From: Styela clava
Taxonomy: Eukaryota
Length of the DNA stretch: 64,000 nt
Reading direction: 5' to 3'
Assembly (NCBI RefSeq): GCF_964204865.1
Contig: NC_135250.1
Coordinates: forward strand, 5,580,001-5,644,000
Numbering within the stretch: position 1 is the first letter of the stretch; the number at the start of each line of letters is the position of its first letter. This document shows positions 18,001-30,000 of this stretch, one piece after another. The position numbers are program-made.

Positions 18001-21000
18001 TGTGTGAAATGAAATTCTTAAGTTAATAATACCATTCCTATTATCGGGGTTGGGTAGAAATTCCTGAACCCAAAGTCTCGAGTCAAATCGAATCACAGTT
18101 AGGATAGGATTTACATATTTATCCTGAGGGAGAATAATCCAGCAATCTTCCGGCACATGACCATCCCCTAGGATAACCATAACCAAGGGATTTGAACTTG
18201 CCAACCTACTTAGGGTAATCAGAGGTGCGGTAGCGAGCATATTGCTAACGCTTAACACAATGCGCCACACCGCGGAGTCACTGTTCATCAGTCAGATGAA
18301 GCTAGAATTTGTCAAGTCTCGTGACCCACCTCAAAAATAACTAACATCAGATAGCAAAGAGCTACGAAATAGTAAGGCGAAAGTATGTTTAATTCAAAAA
18401 ACTTCTTGAAAATACTTGGATGGAACGTAAATAATGAATTAAATGAAAAGTTTGAAGTTGGGCTTATGGCCAACTTCAGCATAATTAATACCAAGATAAT
18501 CTAGCCCTAGCAAGCTAGTGAAGATTCTGCTATTTCTCACTCATGGGGTTTTCCAAATTAGGTTGAAGCTAAAGCAAACTAAAGTGAACTAAACAAAGTT
18601 TGTTTAGTTGAGTAATGTTATGTTATATAGTTTTCACAAATGTTATTACTAAATTCAGTAGATTTCGAATAAGTTATTTGCTTGAACAAAAAATATTCAT
18701 GAAAAATATCGAAAATCACTAATAATCCAGTATTATACACACAAATTCTATAGTGTAGTAATTGAAATTCTATAGTAATTAAAAATATCAAATACCTGAA
18801 TTGTAGCTTGTTTAATTCTGATTTTTGCGATAAAATTTCTCTTTATGAGAGTGACAGTTTGCCGCCATATTGTTACTTCAGGCGGCATGATAATTATATT
18901 ACGGTATATTAAGAAACCTAAAATTAAATATATGTGACAAAATACAGAAATAAAATATATATAGTGACTGTTAACGACAAAACGATCGTGACGCAGACAT
19001 GAAAAAGATATTGATAAAATATTGATTTCTGTGATTGATAACTTCCTAAACTAATAGATAGGGTTGGATTTTCAAATTTATGTCAGGGAAAAGGAAAGTC
19101 AGTATGACAGCTTAATCATATGGCGAACCACAGCCCGTCATCCCGTTAGTAGCCCATGCTGGGTATGAGAATTGTATCCAGATATTTGTTATCTATAATT
19201 TTTGTGTGCCAGTATTCTATTGTCATGTTCCTCTGTACTAGATTTGTTATGTTATGATTTGGAGCCAACCTGATCATTCAAGAAAAAAAACTCAACATAT
19301 TCATATTCGGAAAAATCTGATTCAAAATTTTTTAAATTAGAGATTCGATTTGAAAATATAATATGCAGAAGTTAGTTATTCAAAGATTTGTTCTCTCCAG
19401 ATCCTGTAAGCCATATATATACATATATTTTATCAAATACTGGTCGTCAAAATAAACTAATATTTACCATACCAGTATACCATACTTTTTTGGAATTTAT
19501 GGGTTGCTCGCTAGCTACAGAGCTAGATCACCTGGCGGAATCAATGGACCTTTCCCCGAGCATCGACTTCTTTGTTTACTTCGTGACATTAGCCAATTAG
19601 CAAGATGCAAAAAGTGACGTAACAATGCTCCCTTTTCGCATCCGCTCAGACACTTTTCTCACTCAGACAGATTTTCAAGCGTGGTCGTAAACATTACCTC
19701 GTTTTCGCGTTTTTGAACTCTATTCGTTAGTTTTCAGTTGTGTTTCGGAAACTTAAATATAAATCAGATAATTCAATGATTACTCTGTCTTCCTAGGAGT
19801 TTTAATTTAATTGCAGTAATAAAAAATTAGTGTAGAAATAGCTGTGATAAACTAGGCTAAAATTCTTTACCGGTACTTTCAATAAACAGATTGTTGTATG
19901 CGATGATTCATAATGATGGTTTAAAACACATACCCCATTTTACAGGCGCCAACTCGCAAAAGCACTCTTAAAATAGCGCCGAAAATTTTGCAATGGTAAA
20001 GTATAGGAGGAATTTTTCGGGGGTCAAAGGTCGGGGAAAGGTCCATAGCTCAACTGGTAATAACTGTTTAAATGCCCTGCAGCGTTGCTACTTTTTGAAT
20101 GAAGAAGTTTTGAATCGTTCTCCTATTTTATTCTTTTGCTTTAATCACGGTACGGGTACCGGTACTTTTCATTCATAGCCACAAACAAAACATCTGTAGT
20201 CACATGCTGTGTACAAATATGCGAATCCCGTGCTTGGCTGCAATTCTGTAAAATTACCATGCGAGTTATAAATTTTTTTGCTCGTCAATGACTTTGTTTC
20301 CTTATTATCTCACTCCACATCCCCACACTTTTCTCATTGTGTTTCTTTTTGTAAATCGCTCACTCGTTGTTTTCCTCAAGTCATGTGCTCACGGAACACG
20401 TGAGCTGCGTAAACACACATTTATTTTCTCCTTTCGGAACAATTGTTTGTTTTTTTCTCCTCATATTGTCGCTGAACGTTGTTCAATCATTTTTAGTTGA
20501 GGAATGAGAATGTCAGCGCTCTGAAAATGACAGCTGTAGCTTCATAAAGAACACAAGCTCGAGCTAAATACCACTAGACTTAGGTCAAACTATCAAAATA
20601 TTTAAAAAAAAATAAGGAAATATAGCATCACGCGTCTTATTAGACCTTAGTCATACAAAAACCCGCCGCCCATGAAAAAACATAAAGTGGCATAAACAAA
20701 CATTTTCGATGCTAGGTCTCGCGGGGAAAGTGGTCACAGGTGATGGGATGTCAATATTTAATTGTCCAATCTTATCCCGAGGCATAGATGTTTAAAAAGA
20801 CAACTGCCAACGTTCAGCTTACTTGAACAAATAACGAATATTGGGTACTCCCGAAGTATGCGCACCAGGATGTCGCACATCCTGAATCCTAACCTGGTAC
20901 AAAACCTAAGTTCAGGTTGTGCGCCATCTTGGTGCGCATACTTCAGGAGGTCCGAATATTGTTGTTTCTGTATAATACCTATTTATATACCGTATATGCT

Positions 21001-27000: not shown

Positions 27001-30000
27001 TGTGCCGAGAAGGTAAAGTTTTAAATATGCAAATCTCGACTTGATCAATGATGAAAAATGCTTAAATATTGGAACAAGTGACACAGACATAAAACGTCGA
27101 CTATATCCGGCATTGCGTTGAAGTGTAATTTATTAATATGAAAATTTCGAAAGTCACTCGACGCATTCACGGGATATTTCATTTATAACTATTGGGTTTT
27201 TCTATTTATTTTTTACCTCAAATCACAATTAGAAAGACATAATACATCCGCTATTTGCGCTGTTGGATTGAAATGTAGATGAAAGAATTTAAAATTCAAT
27301 TTAAAATAACCAGACGACGCACTTGCATGATGTAATGATTTAATTTTTTGAGTTTCACCCCTGTTAAGCAAGTTGAGATAACATTTTAGCTTAATTGCCA
27401 TATATCTACCATTTAGGTTAATGAAGCCAATTAGGGCGTATTGTATTATTATATAAACACGTCATTCCCAATTCCAAATTAACAATATTTTGTTTTTATC
27501 ATTTATAGATAGCCCAGTAGCGTTTGCGTATTCTTCCTACAACGGTATCTCAGCTGAAACTACGACAAAAATTTACAATGCAATGATTGAACACGACGAT
27601 ACACCGGTGCCGTTATATTTCTCCCAGTGCCCTTTGATGGAGAATATTGAAGATTATTTGAAGTAATTTGTCAACAATTACGACTGTGATTCTGGACAGT
27701 TTCATTTGCTGTTTCATTAGCGGATCGGAACGCCTTGTTGATATGGTACCATGATGTAAATGTTGTGTTGTAAATGTATACACAGAGAATTGAAATGAAA
27801 CTTTGTTAAAGGAGAGTGAATATATTTAATGACACGCATATTCAAGAGAATAAAATTATCCAGCATTTGCCATGAATTCATTGGGTATTCGCTGATTCAG
27901 TATTTGAATTCACTTACATACCCACAACGTTTTTGCAGTCTACGTAACTAGCCTTTAATTATATTTCGTGACCATCGAGATAATAAACAGTGAACTGCAA
28001 ACAATAAGCACAAAGATAGGACAGTTCCGGAACCGTAATACAGCACGGTAACTGTCTCGTAAAAGCGGGGCTTGCACTCACTGGTATAAATAATGTCTTC
28101 TAATGCGGGGACTTCTTTTGGAATCGGTAAACTGTGCCTTGTTGGGTAAGTCACCGCATTGTAGCTATGTAAGTAGTATATGATGTTGTCCAGAATTGGT
28201 AAATTACTCCACAATACTCCACAATACTCCACAATGCTCTTACTCCACATTACTCCACATCCACATTGCTCTACATGGACAGGACATGTCCACTTTTTCG
28301 GTAAGGTATTAGAGTATTCGCGTAGAGGGTCAGGGGTGTTTCTCTCTCTCTCGATAAGACTTTGACATGAGAATTGGGAGAGAGAAAAATCGCGCTATTG
28401 TTTAATTTTCGCCCTTTAATTGATAAGACTTCGTCAAACTGGGGAGAGAGAAAAATCGCGTTATTGTTTTAACGGGGTGGAATCGCTTGTCGCGTTATTG
28501 TTGTTTTTGTTTAAACGGTGGTGGAATCGCTTGTATAATCGATAAGACTTCGGCGAACTGGGGAAAGAGAAAAATCGCGTTATTACTTTATGGGGGTGTA
28601 ATTAACCGTATTTTCGCTCTCTTGATCGATAAGACCTCAGCGTGATGAAGTGAGTTACCGTGAATAATTAGATAATAAAACTGCGTGAGAAGATCTGCGC
28701 AATCGTTTTGTTTAAATGGAATAGTGTCTTATTATAAACGAAGAAAGAGTTTGTTGAAACTTGATCAAGGCGAGAAAAACATCATGATTGCTTGACCATG
28801 ATAAACTGTTTACTTTGAAATATTCTGACGCTTATGAAGAAAATATCAGCAATGTTTGTAAATGAATCTGCGCCATCGTTTTCTTTTAATGGCTTGTGCC
28901 GTAAACAACAAGACTTGCTGTGTAGCGCTGTTACACTGTTTGTTTTTATAAAGAATGTAAAAGAGAGAAAAATTATTTACAGAAAAATCTAGCTATTTTT
29001 ACGATTAAACAAAATCGGAAATATATCACTCCGTGAATTTACAGGGAAATTAACTAAACAGTGGTGACACAGTAAAATGAAACGAAACCTTAAACAAAGG
29101 AATAAAAAATGAAATGCGAGTGGGATTGCTGAAATTTTGACGATGAATTTTATCCGGTTATTTGTTAACGTATGCTTTTTTACTAAATATCTCGTTAAAT
29201 ATGATGAAATAGATTCAGCGTGACAAGTAAAACCCCCATCTGGTGCTTATTTTATTGGAATATTGTTGCGATTATGAATGAAAAGTCGGTTAGGTTTTTA
29301 AGGTTTGCAGCTTTAATAACAAAACTAACGCAGTATCCACCATTTCGTGTAGTATCAGACCACATAATTTATTTTATACCACTGGTCGTACTATGCGGGG
29401 CGGCTTTGTAGTTTTAACATATTGAGACTGTTGTGTGAAAGGTTCCTCAGAAATGAAGTAAATGTTTTATGCTTTGGCGTGCGATTAATTTTAATGAGTG
29501 AAGTAGAAAAGTTTAAATGTTAGTTGAACTGCGGTAATTCTTGCGATGGTATCTAATTATACATCATAAAAATTCAGCATGCGTCAATTTATTAGCGTGT
29601 GCATATTTATTAACAAATCTTCAAATGTGGCAAATATTGAATGCTCAGTAATGAACTAATAAAATTATTTTGTTAATACTTCTGACATTTGATACATTGG
29701 TATAAATTTTATGTAAAGATAAAATGTTGATTAAGCAGTTGGAACGATTCTTTTTTTGCTTGGATTTTGTTTAGTCGACCAGAATGAAAGTTGTATTCCC
29801 CGTAACTGATTTGCTGAAAATTGACAGAGCTGTTTCTATTTTAGTATTTTATTATGATAGAATTAATTTGGCCCCGTATTACACTCGGCAGAGATGTAGC
29901 TACGTAATATGCATATGAGTGTAACCATGTTACGATACTAAAATACCGCTATGGCCATGATAAAAATTACAGAGATTCTGTTTTTATTTATGAAACATGT

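What the first reader, a model, noticed from the sequence alone, without database searches (positions are those of the whole stretch)
18796..27666. Hidden secreted lipocalin gene head-to-head with an ABCA5-like lipid exporter
Seen: a clean 6-exon, 211-aa ORF that the ORF track does not recover, with signal peptide, G-T-T-W-Y and TDYETY motifs; its ATG is 5.75 kb from the divergently oriented ABCA ATG. Known: ABCA transporters export lipids to extracellular acceptors (ABCA1 to apoA-I), and lipocalins such as ApoD are secreted hydrophobic-ligand carriers. Inference: this could be a co-regulated exporter plus acceptor module, with the lipocalin as the lipid acceptor. Adjacency alone is weak evidence.
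Basis: partly seen in the sequence, partly recalled or inferred. Interest (0 to 1): 0.65.

Follow-up and report, generated by a model that had tools for sequence, protein, structure and literature searches.

The report
Sea-squirt lipocalin beside ABCA5-like transporters
A real six-exon gene of the sea squirt Styela clava encodes a secreted, very divergent lipocalin that standard domain searches miss, and its position next to a lipid-transporter gene looks like ordinary neighbourhood rather than a demonstrated partnership.

Summary
The window is Styela clava (tunicate), not human. The exon-2 peptide alone retrieved the NCBI protein 'uncharacterized protein LOC144425899' (211 aa), which maps at 100% to all six exons with GT-AG introns of phases 0,2,1,1,1. 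That is the canonical chordate lipocalin gene structure. So the gene is hidden only from a prokaryote-style ORF track; it is publicly annotated but unnamed.

Pfam finds nothing in it. A profile of 15 family members hits only lipocalins in the PDB at E<=0.001 (crustacyanin A2 1.4e-6, ApoD 1e-5). AlphaFold models of this protein (pTM 0.75) and of a paralog (pTM 0.80) are eight-stranded barrels with a C-terminal helix. Foldseek returns only lipocalins for both. The family carries a conserved insert of about 35 residues, forming two helices, between strands E and F.

The head-to-head geometry is correct (5,750-nt spacer), and the partner is a full ABCA5-like transporter. However, the spacer is transposon-rich, the lipocalin sits between two tandem ABCA5-like copies, and three named paralogs lie on other contigs. 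Co-expression, synteny and binding could not be tested, so the exporter-acceptor module remains unsupported speculation.

The parts
24639..24752 (+). Lipocalin exon 1 (residues 1-38). It encodes the start codon, a signal-peptide-like hydrophobic stretch (about residues 7-20), and C25, the first conserved cysteine. It ends in phase 0 with donor GTAAGT.
   Evidence: The C25 column is Cys in 13 of 15 family members.
25572..25705 (+). Lipocalin exon 2 (residues 39-82 plus 2 nt of codon 83). It encodes the G-T-T-W-Y motif (25578-25592; lipocalin SCR1, strand A), invariant C60, and strands B and C.
   Evidence: (100% to the NCBI protein). W44, Y45 and C60 are invariant in 15 of 15.
25993..26069 (+). 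Lipocalin exon 3 (last nt of codon 83, residues 84-108, first nt of codon 109). It encodes strands D and E. Its donor, GTTATT, is weak.
   Evidence: (100%).
26534..26605 (+). Lipocalin exon 4 (residues 110-132 plus split codons). It encodes the first helix (109-121) and the linker of the family-specific two-helix insert between strands E and F.
   Evidence: The insert is 32-41 residues in 14 of 15 members. It is helical with block pLDDT 90-94 in the paralog model.
26932..27012 (+). Lipocalin exon 5 (residues 134-159 plus split codons). It encodes the second insert helix, strand F, the T-D-Y-E-T-Y motif (26970-26987; SCR2), strand G and invariant C157.
   Evidence: (100%).
27509..27666 (+). Lipocalin exon 6 (residues 161-211 plus the stop codon). 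It encodes strand H, the canonical C-terminal helix (175-187) and invariant C200. The SCR3 column holds Ser here.
   Evidence: (100%).
18889..24638 (.). 5,750-nt spacer between the two divergent start codons. It contains inverted-repeat-bounded transposon-like elements at 19544-20046, 20837-20960 and 21236-22664, plus a dispersed repeat at 23018-23209.
   Evidence: inverted repeats; a copy at 45914-46111. No Pfam family was found in 21 of 21 ORFs of 60 aa or more. No Rfam match.
670..18888 (-). ABCA5-like transporter, copy A: residues 1-915 of a 1,713-aa protein. Exon 1 is at 18796-18888. The gene continues beyond the left edge of the window.
   Evidence: The NBD1 exon 5931-6113 hits ABCA4/3/1/7 at E 1e-26 to 1e-23.
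37050..63902 (-). ABCA5-like transporter, copy B: residues 105 to about 1707. Its 5' end lies beyond the right edge of the window. It is tail-to-tail with the lipocalin, with about 9.4 kb between the coding ends.
   Evidence: The duplication 29-16234 versus 48221-64000 is 93-99.5% identical.
24915..25087 (.). Dispersed repeat inside lipocalin intron 1, with further copies at 1752-1923 and 49687-49864. It resembles the palindromic element at 20837-20960.
   Evidence: direct reading.

Best explanation
This is a genuine protein-coding gene of Styela clava (NCBI LOC144425899). It encodes a secreted lipocalin of the ApoD / bilin-binding-protein / crustacyanin branch, and it belongs to a small, very divergent subfamily that Pfam does not recognise.

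Proposed mechanism:
- The N-terminal hydrophobic segment directs the protein into the secretory pathway. This is inferred; cleavage is probably near C22.
- The mature chain folds into the eight-stranded calyx with the C-terminal helix. This is shown only by prediction.
- Two disulfides probably staple the fold, C25-C157 and C60-C200. This is inferred from four conserved cysteines that align with those of crustacyanin and ApoD.
- The calyx carries a small hydrophobic ligand. This is inferred from the family; the ligand is unknown.
- A conserved two-helix insert of about 35 residues lies in the E-F loop. In lipocalins that loop is at the open end of the barrel (recalled from the anticalin literature), so the insert most likely acts as a lid or docking surface over the ligand entrance. 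This is inference.

The head-to-head position relative to an ABCA5-like gene is real. It is best read as ordinary gene neighbourhood inside a tandemly duplicated ABCA5-like region, not as a functional exporter-acceptor unit.
For: Gene reality:
- The exon-2 peptide is 100% identical to a 211-aa NCBI protein.
- That protein maps to all six exons.
- GT-AG introns with phases 0,2,1,1,1 match the 'six coding exons ... 0,2,1,1,1' described for chordate lipocalin genes (PMC3184775, passages read).
- Full-length distant homologs exist: 16 representatives at E<=0.001, 14 of them at 25-31% identity.

Lipocalin identity:
- Family alignment A1 has invariant W44, Y45, C60, Y148, C157 and C200, and the consensus motifs G-x-W-Y and T-D-Y-x-N-Y.
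- The A1 profile against the PDB gives 8 of 8 hits at E<=0.001 that are lipocalins: crustacyanin A2 1.4e-6, ApoD 1e-5, Per a 4, DigA16/BBP and sandercyanin. Of the 44 rows at E<=10, 42 are lipocalins by name or recall.
- The printed alignments put the first three family cysteines on crustacyanin A2 cysteines, and the first and third on ApoD cysteines.
- The AF2 model of P0001 has pLDDT 79.4 and pTM 0.75, with strands A-H and a C-terminal helix.
- Foldseek against the PDB returned 340 hits at E<=0.001, and all 41 listed rows are lipocalins with TM(target) 0.56-0.69.
- The paralog P0016 model has pLDDT 88.4 and pTM 0.80 with the same topology. Its top hits are BBP, ApoD and sandercyanin.
- The ESM Atlas named look-alikes are all lipocalin-type, scoring 0.89-0.93.
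- Secretion: 15 of 17 family sequences have an N-terminal hydrophobic stretch. The two without are N-truncated models.

Adjacency is probably incidental:
- The spacer is 5,750 nt and holds three TIR-bounded elements.
- The lipocalin lies between two tandem ABCA5-like copies.
- The named paralogs P0064 (46% identical), P0016 and P0014 are on contigs of other lengths.
- The S. clava genome is 340 Mb with 17,428 genes and 46.69% repeats, i.e. roughly 20 kb per gene (PMC7540406, passages).
Against: Against the lipocalin reading:
- Pfam finds no family in P0001 even at E<=10 and none in any single exon.
- Only 4 of 15 family members touch PF00061, all sub-threshold (best E 0.0025).
- P0001 has Ser where 10 of 15 family members keep the SCR3 arginine.
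- P0001 lacks a Trp that is conserved in 90% or more of the family.
- The insert region of the P0001 model has only pLDDT 59-77.

Against the gene being functional:
- The intron-3 donor GTTATT is weak.
- I saw no transcript data.
- An older NCBI/UniRef model (P0002, 157 aa) is frame-shifted from exon 4 onward. This could mean a null allele or an assembly indel.

Against 'incidental adjacency':
- The 90% cluster of P0001 holds 7 member sequences on one contig, and that of the ABCA5-like protein holds 25 on one contig. This leaves room for a co-amplified array.
- In a shrimp feeding study, an ABCA5 transcript and crustacyanin A2 both responded to astaxanthin (PMC11658619, passages). This is correlative only and comes from a distant taxon.
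Confidence: 0.78

Rival explanations
1. Exporter-acceptor module. The ABCA5-like pump and the lipocalin would be co-regulated from the shared upstream region, and the secreted lipocalin would take up the lipid, sterol or carotenoid that the pump extrudes.
For: - The divergent orientation and 5.75-kb spacing are real.
- The neighbour is a complete ABCA transporter: two ABC_tran domains, two ABC2_membrane_3 domains and an R1_ABCA1 domain.
- There is a precedent for a lipocalin acting as extracellular acceptor of cell-exported lipid: apoM and sphingosine-1-phosphate efflux from erythrocytes (PMC5678177, title and abstract start in the listing).
- Cluster sizes (7 and 25 members, each on one contig) are compatible with co-amplification of both genes.
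- In shrimp, ABCA5 and crustacyanin A2 transcripts both respond to astaxanthin (PMC11658619, passages).
Against: - No test of binding, co-expression or synteny was possible here.
- The spacer is about six times longer than the usual bidirectional-promoter limit (recalled) and is partly made of transposon-like insertions.
- The lipocalin is equally close, tail-to-tail, to a second ABCA5-like copy, as expected if it is merely embedded in a tandem duplication.
- All three other named S. clava family members returned are on contigs of other lengths.
- Mammalian ABCA5 is described as lysosomal (PMC10784510, abstract start in the listing).
Confidence: 0.07
2. The locus is a decaying or non-functional gene copy. 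Under this reading the RefSeq model is an ab initio prediction without expression, and the protein is not made.
For: - The intron-3 donor GTTATT is weak.
- P0001 has lost the SCR3 arginine and a family-conserved Trp.
- The older model P0002 is frame-shifted from exon 4 onward.
Against: - The reading frame is open across all six exons, with correct phases.
- All four structural cysteines and both SCR1 and SCR2 are retained.
- The closest paralog, P0064, shares the same Ser at the SCR3 column and is 46% identical over 205 residues. The substitutions therefore define a conserved subclade rather than decay.
- The model folds confidently.
Confidence: 0.08
3. The protein is not a lipocalin but a degenerate Arf-like small GTPase. 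The G-T-T-W-Y and T-D-Y-E motifs would then be relics of the P-loop and the NKxD box.
For: A single-sequence phmmer search against the PDB gave ARL6 chains as its four best hits, over residues 70-123, with E 0.0023-0.049.
Against: - Pfam shows no Arf or Ras match at E<=10.
- With the family profile, no GTPase appears among the 44 rows.
- Both AF2 models are beta-barrels, not the alpha/beta GTPase fold.
- Foldseek lists only lipocalins.
- The gene structure and the cysteine pattern fit lipocalins.
Confidence: 0.01

Closest known systems
Apolipoprotein D / Lazarillo / insect bilin-binding protein / crustacyanin / sandercyanin branch of the lipocalins
   Same: - G-x-W-Y and T-D-Y-x-x-Y motifs.
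- An N-terminal Cys followed, at the same spacing, by the G-x-W motif.
- A Cys about 16 residues after the Trp, and a Cys 11 residues after the T of T-D-Y (alignments).
- An eight-stranded barrel plus a C-terminal helix.
- The best profile and fold matches are in this branch.
- Six coding exons with phases 0,2,1,1,1, as reported for chordate lipocalin genes (PMC3184775).
   Different: - Sequence identity to solved lipocalins is only 11-20%.
- There is no Pfam hit.
- A conserved two-helix insert of 32-41 residues lies between strands E and F. I did not see its like named in the matched structures, but I did not check this systematically.
- P0001 and its closest paralog lack the SCR3 arginine.
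- The ligand is unknown.
ABCA1 with apoA-I, and transporter-exported sphingosine-1-phosphate with the lipocalin apoM
   Same: Both pair a membrane lipid exporter with a secreted acceptor protein. ApoM shows that a lipocalin can play the acceptor role (PMC5678177, listing).
   Different: - Those pairs are not encoded by adjacent genes (recalled).
- Here only adjacency exists, and no interaction, co-expression or synteny is shown.
- The transporter is ABCA5-like, and its mammalian namesake is described as lysosomal (PMC10784510, listing).
Bidirectional (head-to-head) gene pairs sharing a promoter
   Same: The two genes are in divergent orientation, with no other gene detected between them.
   Different: The start codons are 5.75 kb apart, whereas the usual definition is <1 kb between transcription starts (recalled). 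The spacer also carries transposon-like insertions.

Membership tests
Lipocalin (calycin) family | SCR1: a G-x-W motif at the start of strand A | tested here: met
   G41-T-T-W44-Y45 at 25578-25592. W and Y are invariant in 15 of 15, and G is present in 11 of 15. The motif aligns with the G-R-W-Y of crustacyanin A2 and ApoD.
Lipocalin (calycin) family | SCR2: a T-D-Y motif at the end of strand F | tested here: met
   T146-D-Y148 at 26970-26978. T is present in 12 of 15 (S in the other 3), D in 14 of 15 and Y in 15 of 15. The motif aligns with the TDYE of crustacyanin, ApoD and Per a 4 and follows predicted strand 142-146.
Lipocalin (calycin) family | SCR3: a conserved Arg in strand H | tested here: not met
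   P0001 has Ser169 at this column. The family has Arg in 10 of 15, Lys in 2 of 15 and other residues in 3 of 15. The family consensus Arg aligns with the Arg of ApoD. By the classical scheme (recalled), P0001 therefore matches two of the three SCRs.
Lipocalin (calycin) family | An eight-stranded antiparallel beta-barrel followed by an alpha-helix | tested here: met
   This is met by prediction only. P0001 has pTM 0.75, eight strands and helix 175-187. P0016 has pTM 0.80. The Foldseek rows listed are all lipocalins.
Lipocalin (calycin) family | A Pfam PF00061 or PF08212 match above the gathering score | tested here: not met
   No family was found for P0001 at E<=10. 4 of 15 members match PF00061 sub-threshold, with best E 0.0025.
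Lipocalin (calycin) family | Canonical gene structure: six coding exons with intron phases 0,2,1,1,1 | tested here: met
   Exon lengths of 114, 134, 77, 72, 81 and 158 nt give phases 0,2,1,1,1. The pattern is quoted in PMC3184775. The primary paper (Sanchez et al. 2003) is not held.
Lipocalin (calycin) family | Secretion through a signal peptide | tested here: inconclusive
   An N-terminal hydrophobic stretch is present in P0001 and in 15 of 17 family sequences. No signal-peptide predictor was available, so the cleavage site is inferred.
Lipocalin (calycin) family | Binding of a small hydrophobic ligand in the calyx | not testable with these tools
   This needs recombinant protein and ligand assays.
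ApoD-type lipocalin branch | A four-cysteine pattern forming two disulfides (N-terminal Cys with the Cys after T-D-Y; the Cys after strand A with the C-terminal Cys) | tested here: inconclusive
   The four columns are conserved: C25 in 13 of 15, and C60, C157 and C200 in 15 of 15. Three of them align with crustacyanin A2 cysteines and two with ApoD cysteines. The pairing itself is recalled from ApoD. It was not measured, because no model coordinates were available to me.
Exporter-acceptor module / bidirectional pair | A shared short promoter region (<1 kb) | tested here: not met
   The spacer is 5,750 nt and contains transposon-like insertions.
Exporter-acceptor module / bidirectional pair | Conserved linkage in related species, and with paralogs | not testable with these tools
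   No eukaryotic genome collection is on hand. The named paralogs are on other contigs, but their neighbours are unknown.
Exporter-acceptor module / bidirectional pair | Co-expression and physical or functional hand-off | not tested
   No expression data were available. I did not use the complex-prediction job, because I make no binding claim and the transporter exceeds the size limit.
ABCA transporter (the neighbour) | A full transporter (TMD-NBD-TMD-NBD) with ABC2_membrane_3 domains and the ABCA C-terminal regulatory domain | tested here: met
   P0017 has two ABC_tran stretches (3.4e-62), two ABC2_membrane_3 stretches (1.9e-49) and R1_ABCA1 (2.1e-12). The NBD1 exon hits ABCA4/3/1/7 first. 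The name 'ABCA5-like' is NCBI's; I did not test orthology to ABCA5.

The most novel reading that the evidence does not exclude
The protein would represent a tunicate lineage of 'lidded' lipocalins. Their conserved two-helix E-F insert would be a docking or gating device, and this member would have been co-amplified with ABCA5-like pumps as a dedicated acceptor for a pumped hydrophobic cargo, such as a sterol, sphingolipid or carotenoid. That would make it a genomically linked exporter-acceptor pair in a chordate.
Probability: 0.05. Interest if true: 0.7.

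Novelty: new member of a known kind. Interest (0 to 1): 0.3.

Why it matters
It turns an 'uncharacterized protein' of a model invasive ascidian into a recognisable lipocalin. It also defines a Pfam-invisible subfamily: at least four named S. clava loci, plus 11 unnamed representatives (12 if the older P0002 model of this locus is counted). The subfamily carries a conserved helical insert at the ligand entrance. This is useful for annotation, for the history of chordate lipocalins (the ApoD-like branch with the 0,2,1,1,1 gene structure), and possibly as a natural scaffold variant. 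The more exciting idea of a linked pump-acceptor pair remains untested and is unlikely on present evidence.

Tried and rejected
- **Pfam on single exons**. There were no lipocalin hits. The only row, Nodulin-like at E 0.077 on exon 6, is noise.
- **Pfam on the whole NCBI protein**. Nothing was found.
- **Single-sequence PDB search**. It gave weak ARL6 hits. I considered a degenerate GTPase seriously and rejected it after the profile search and the folds.
- **tRNA scan** and **Rfam scan** of the window. Neither found anything, so the SINE-like repeats remain unclassified.
- **Pfam on flanking ORFs**. I scanned 37 ORFs of 60 aa or more in the spacer and in 27.6-34.9 kb. None matched, so no further gene was detected there.
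- **tblastn of all 16 family proteins then in hand against the window**. Only the one lipocalin locus appeared; there is no second copy within 64 kb.
- **PDB search with the TMD exon frame 12848-13129**. There were no hits.
- **Bacterial-type promoter/terminator scan upstream of the ATG**. It is meaningless for a eukaryote and I disregarded it.
- **The listing of cluster members** for the names and taxa of family members. The database was switched off for these sessions, so the taxonomic range of 11 unnamed representatives stays unknown, as does the identity of the 7 sequences in P0001's 90% cluster.
- **Sanchez et al. 2003**. The paper is not held, so the intron-phase pattern is cited second-hand from PMC3184775.
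- **Literature searches.** 'Styela clava' + lipocalin found 1 paper, which was irrelevant. Lipocalin + tunicate + apolipoprotein D found 3 papers. Lipocalin + ascidian found 27 papers, of which 15 were listed and none concerned an ascidian lipocalin gene. ABCA5 + lipocalin found 16 papers, of which 12 were listed and none described a linked pair.
- **Complex prediction.** I did not use it, because I make no binding claim, the transporter exceeds the size limit, and a pass would move a low prior only slightly.
- **Joined spliced model.** I did not concatenate the exons or search with a joined sequence. Whole-protein analyses used the public NCBI record that the exon-2 search returned.
- **Not examined.** I did not use the bacterial/archaeal genome-contig collection, which is irrelevant to a tunicate.

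Full report
**Origin and scope.** The window has about 34% G+C and contains no N. It is Styela clava, a stolidobranch ascidian, not human. The peptide of exon 2 alone (25572-25703) matched at 100% a 211-aa NCBI protein, 'uncharacterized protein LOC144425899 [Styela clava]' (P0001). It also matched at 98% an older 157-aa model, LOC120340069 (P0002). All whole-protein analyses used the public record P0001 that the exon search returned.

**The observation.** Reading together with the frames gives six exons on the + strand: 24639-24752, 25572-25705, 25993-26069, 26534-26605, 26932-27012 and 27509-27666. They total 636 nt, i.e. 211 codons plus the stop. All introns are GT-AG. The third donor, GTTATT, is weak. 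The intron phases are 0,2,1,1,1. P0001 maps back to exactly these blocks by tblastn at 95-100%. G-T-T-W-Y lies at 25578-25592 and T-D-Y-E-T-Y at 26970-26987. No stop-to-stop frame over the gene exceeds 82 aa, so a prokaryote-style ORF track cannot recover it.

On the other strand, an ABCA start codon sits at 18888-18886 and its first exon ends at 18796, which leaves a 5,750-nt spacer. The only correction is that the gene is not hidden from public annotation.

**Is it a lipocalin?** Standard domain searches say nothing. There is no Pfam family for any exon or for P0001 even at E<=10. A single-sequence PDB search gave only weak ARL6 GTPase hits over residues 70-123 (E 0.0023-0.049). I took this seriously, because the P-loop and NKxD boxes could mimic the two motifs.

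The exhaustive phmmer search over 1.84 billion representatives found 16 proteins at E<=0.001. Fourteen of them are distant full-length relatives of 176-224 aa at 25-31% identity. Their alignment (A1; columns counted) shows the following conserved positions:
- W44, Y45, C60, Y148, C157 and C200 are invariant.
- The C25 column is Cys in 13 of 15.
- The consensus N-terminus is C-x-L-P...D-W-x-K-x-x-G-x-W-Y.
- The consensus SCR2 motif is T-D-Y-x-N-Y.

The A1 profile against the PDB returned 44 rows at E<=10. All eight at E<=0.001 are lipocalins of the ApoD branch: crustacyanin A2 (1.4e-6), ApoD (1e-5), Per a 4, DigA16/bilin-binding protein and sandercyanin. Only two rows, both at E>0.8, are not lipocalins, and none is a GTPase. 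The printed alignments place the family's first three cysteines on crustacyanin A2 cysteines, and its first and third on ApoD cysteines.

Pfam on the 15 members gave sub-threshold Lipocalin matches in 4 of 15 (best 0.0025), Lipocalin_2 in 1 and VDE lipocalin in 1. The ESM Atlas named look-alikes are all lipocalin-type, scoring 0.89-0.93. The three best rows (0.93-0.94) are unnamed arthropod clusters.

**Fold.** AlphaFold2 with A1 gave mean pLDDT 79.4 and pTM 0.75 for P0001. Its secondary structure runs as follows:
- strands at 43-49, 60-68, 72-81, 86-98 and 101-105
- two helices at 109-121 and 128-137
- strands at 142-146, 151-156 and 163-168
- a helix at 175-187

This is the A-H barrel plus the canonical C-terminal helix, with an extra two-helix insert between strands E and F. 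Foldseek against the PDB gave 340 matches at E<=0.001. All 41 listed rows are lipocalins, including beta-lactoglobulin (4.5e-6), ApoD (7e-6), crustacyanin and Per a 4, with TM(target) 0.56-0.69. One row, DiB-RM, I know as an engineered lipocalin only from recall.

A second model, of the S. clava paralog P0016 with A2, reached pLDDT 88.4 and pTM 0.80 with the same topology. Its insert helices (112-124 and 129-140) fall in blocks of pLDDT 90-94. Its best matches are bilin-binding protein, ApoD and sandercyanin. The insert is 32-41 residues long in 14 of 15 members. I therefore reject the GTPase alternative.

**Gene structure as independent evidence.** A paper on amphioxus retinoid genes, citing Sanchez et al. 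[quoted passage not shown] The primary paper is not held. The present gene has exactly this structure.

**Membership caveats.** P0001 meets SCR1 and SCR2 but has Ser at the SCR3 arginine column, where the family has Arg in 10 of 15 and Lys in 2 of 15. It also lacks a Trp kept by 90% or more of the family. Its closest paralog, P0064 (46% identity over 205 residues), shares these traits. They therefore mark a subclade rather than decay.

Secretion is inferred from an N-terminal hydrophobic stretch, present in 15 of 17 family sequences; the other two are truncated models. No signal-peptide predictor was available. The disulfide pairing (C25-C157 and C60-C200) is inferred by analogy with ApoD, recalled from memory, because no model coordinates were accessible.

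**The neighbour and the wider locus.** An NBD1 exon (5931-6113, minus strand) hits ABCA4, ABCA3, ABCA1 and ABCA7 at E 1e-26 to 1e-23. The next class of ABC proteins appears only at 1e-10. Another exon retrieved 'cholesterol transporter ABCA5-like isoform X3 [Styela clava]' (P0017, 1,713 aa), reported on a contig of the same length (32,746,820) as P0001. Its Pfam architecture is that of a full ABCA transporter.

tblastn maps residues 1-915 to 18888-670 (copy A, which runs off the left edge). It maps residues 105-1681 to 63902-38094, and the tail to 37133-37050 (copy B, whose 5' end is off the right edge). The two copies are a tandem duplication: 29-16234 versus 48221-64000, at 93-99.5% identity.

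The lipocalin therefore lies between two ABCA5-like paralogs. It is head-to-head with copy A and tail-to-tail with copy B, with about 9.4 kb between the coding ends. No second lipocalin lies in the window.

**The module idea.** I could test only the anatomy.
- The spacer carries inverted-repeat-bounded elements at 19544-20046, 20837-20960 and 21236-22664 and a dispersed repeat at 23018-23209. It has no Pfam-recognisable ORF and no Rfam match.
- At 5.75 kb, the spacer is well beyond the <1 kb usually required of a bidirectional promoter (recalled). It is unremarkable for a 340-Mb genome with 17,428 genes and 46.69% repeats (PMC7540406, passages).
- The three other named family members returned (P0064, P0016, P0014) are on contigs of other lengths. 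Their neighbours are unknown.
- Mammalian ABCA5 is described as a lysosomal transporter (PMC10784510, abstract start in the listing), which weakens the ABCA1/apoA-I analogy.

In favour of the idea there are only precedents and hints:
- The lipocalin apoM mediates sphingosine-1-phosphate efflux from erythrocytes (PMC5678177, listing).
- A shrimp ABCA5 transcript and crustacyanin A2 both respond to dietary astaxanthin (PMC11658619, passages).
- The 90% clusters of P0001 and P0017 hold 7 and 25 sequences respectively, each on one contig. This could reflect isoforms or a co-amplified array.

**Literature.** Searches for 'Styela clava' + lipocalin (1 irrelevant paper), lipocalin + tunicate + apolipoprotein D (3 papers), lipocalin + ascidian (27 papers of which 15 were listed) and ABCA5 + lipocalin (16 papers of which 12 were listed) found no description of this gene family or of a linked ABCA-lipocalin pair. 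The library lacks most subscription journals, and supplements were closed.

**Verdict.** The lipocalin inference is right, and it is now supported by profile, fold and gene-structure evidence despite Pfam's silence. The protein is a new, divergent member of a known family. It has an interesting conserved helical insert at the presumed ligand entrance. The exporter-acceptor module is unsupported, and I put its probability at about 5-7%. Overall interest is modest.

Noticed in passing
window 29-16234 versus 48221-64000: The ABCA5-like gene is tandemly duplicated. Most blocks are 93-97% identical, but the 6.3-kb block 9888-16234 / 57653-64000 is 99.5% identical through introns as well as exons. 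This suggests recent gene conversion or a very young partial duplication.
   Followed up: partly
window 3966-4165, 7583-7800, 9668-9880, 16213-16343, 37209-37432, 39137-39271, 46484-46655, 47037-47242, 51898-52115, 55489-55710: A dispersed repeat of about 200 bp is present in at least ten copies, in both orientations, mostly inside ABCA5-like introns, at 79-89% identity. It is unclassified: there are no tRNA or Rfam hits.
   Followed up: no
window 20837-20960; related copies at 24915-25087, 1752-1923 and 49687-49864: A palindromic, MITE-like element has 50-nt arms that are 86% complementary. Related copies lie in lipocalin intron 1 and in both ABCA5-like copies.
   Followed up: partly
window 21236-22664: A 1.43-kb element is bounded by 20-nt inverted repeats that are 90% complementary. 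It has no Pfam-recognisable ORF and is probably a non-autonomous DNA transposon in the spacer.
   Followed up: partly
window 31974-32548 (wider repeat zone 31844-32743): A tandem array has a 203-bp unit in 2.9 copies with 83% matches. It sits in a very AT-rich stretch (27-29% G+C) with strong positive GC skew between the lipocalin and ABCA5-like copy B.
   Followed up: no
window 29001-29204 and 30370-30573: Two direct repeats of 204 bp are 96% identical and start 1.37 kb apart. They may be the ends of a small LTR-like or composite element. No Pfam ORF lies between them.
   Followed up: no
P0002 (older model of the same or an allelic locus), mapping to window 26530-27006: The older 157-aa model LOC120340069 is 95% identical over residues 1-126 and then reads exon 5 in another frame. 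The cause is either an indel in exon 4 of the older assembly or a frame-shifted allele. Reported heterozygosity is 1.72% (PMC7540406).
   Followed up: partly
P0001 residues 70-123 (window exons 2-4): There is a chance local similarity to the switch-II / beta-4 region of ARL6 GTPases (E 0.0023-0.049 for four PDB sequences). It disappears with the family profile and contradicts the predicted fold.
   Followed up: yes
window 24575-24604: A polypyrimidine tract followed by AG lies 35-45 nt upstream of the lipocalin ATG. It could be the acceptor of a 5'-UTR intron or of spliced-leader trans-splicing, which is common in tunicates (recalled). The true transcription start may therefore lie elsewhere in the spacer.
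   Followed up: no
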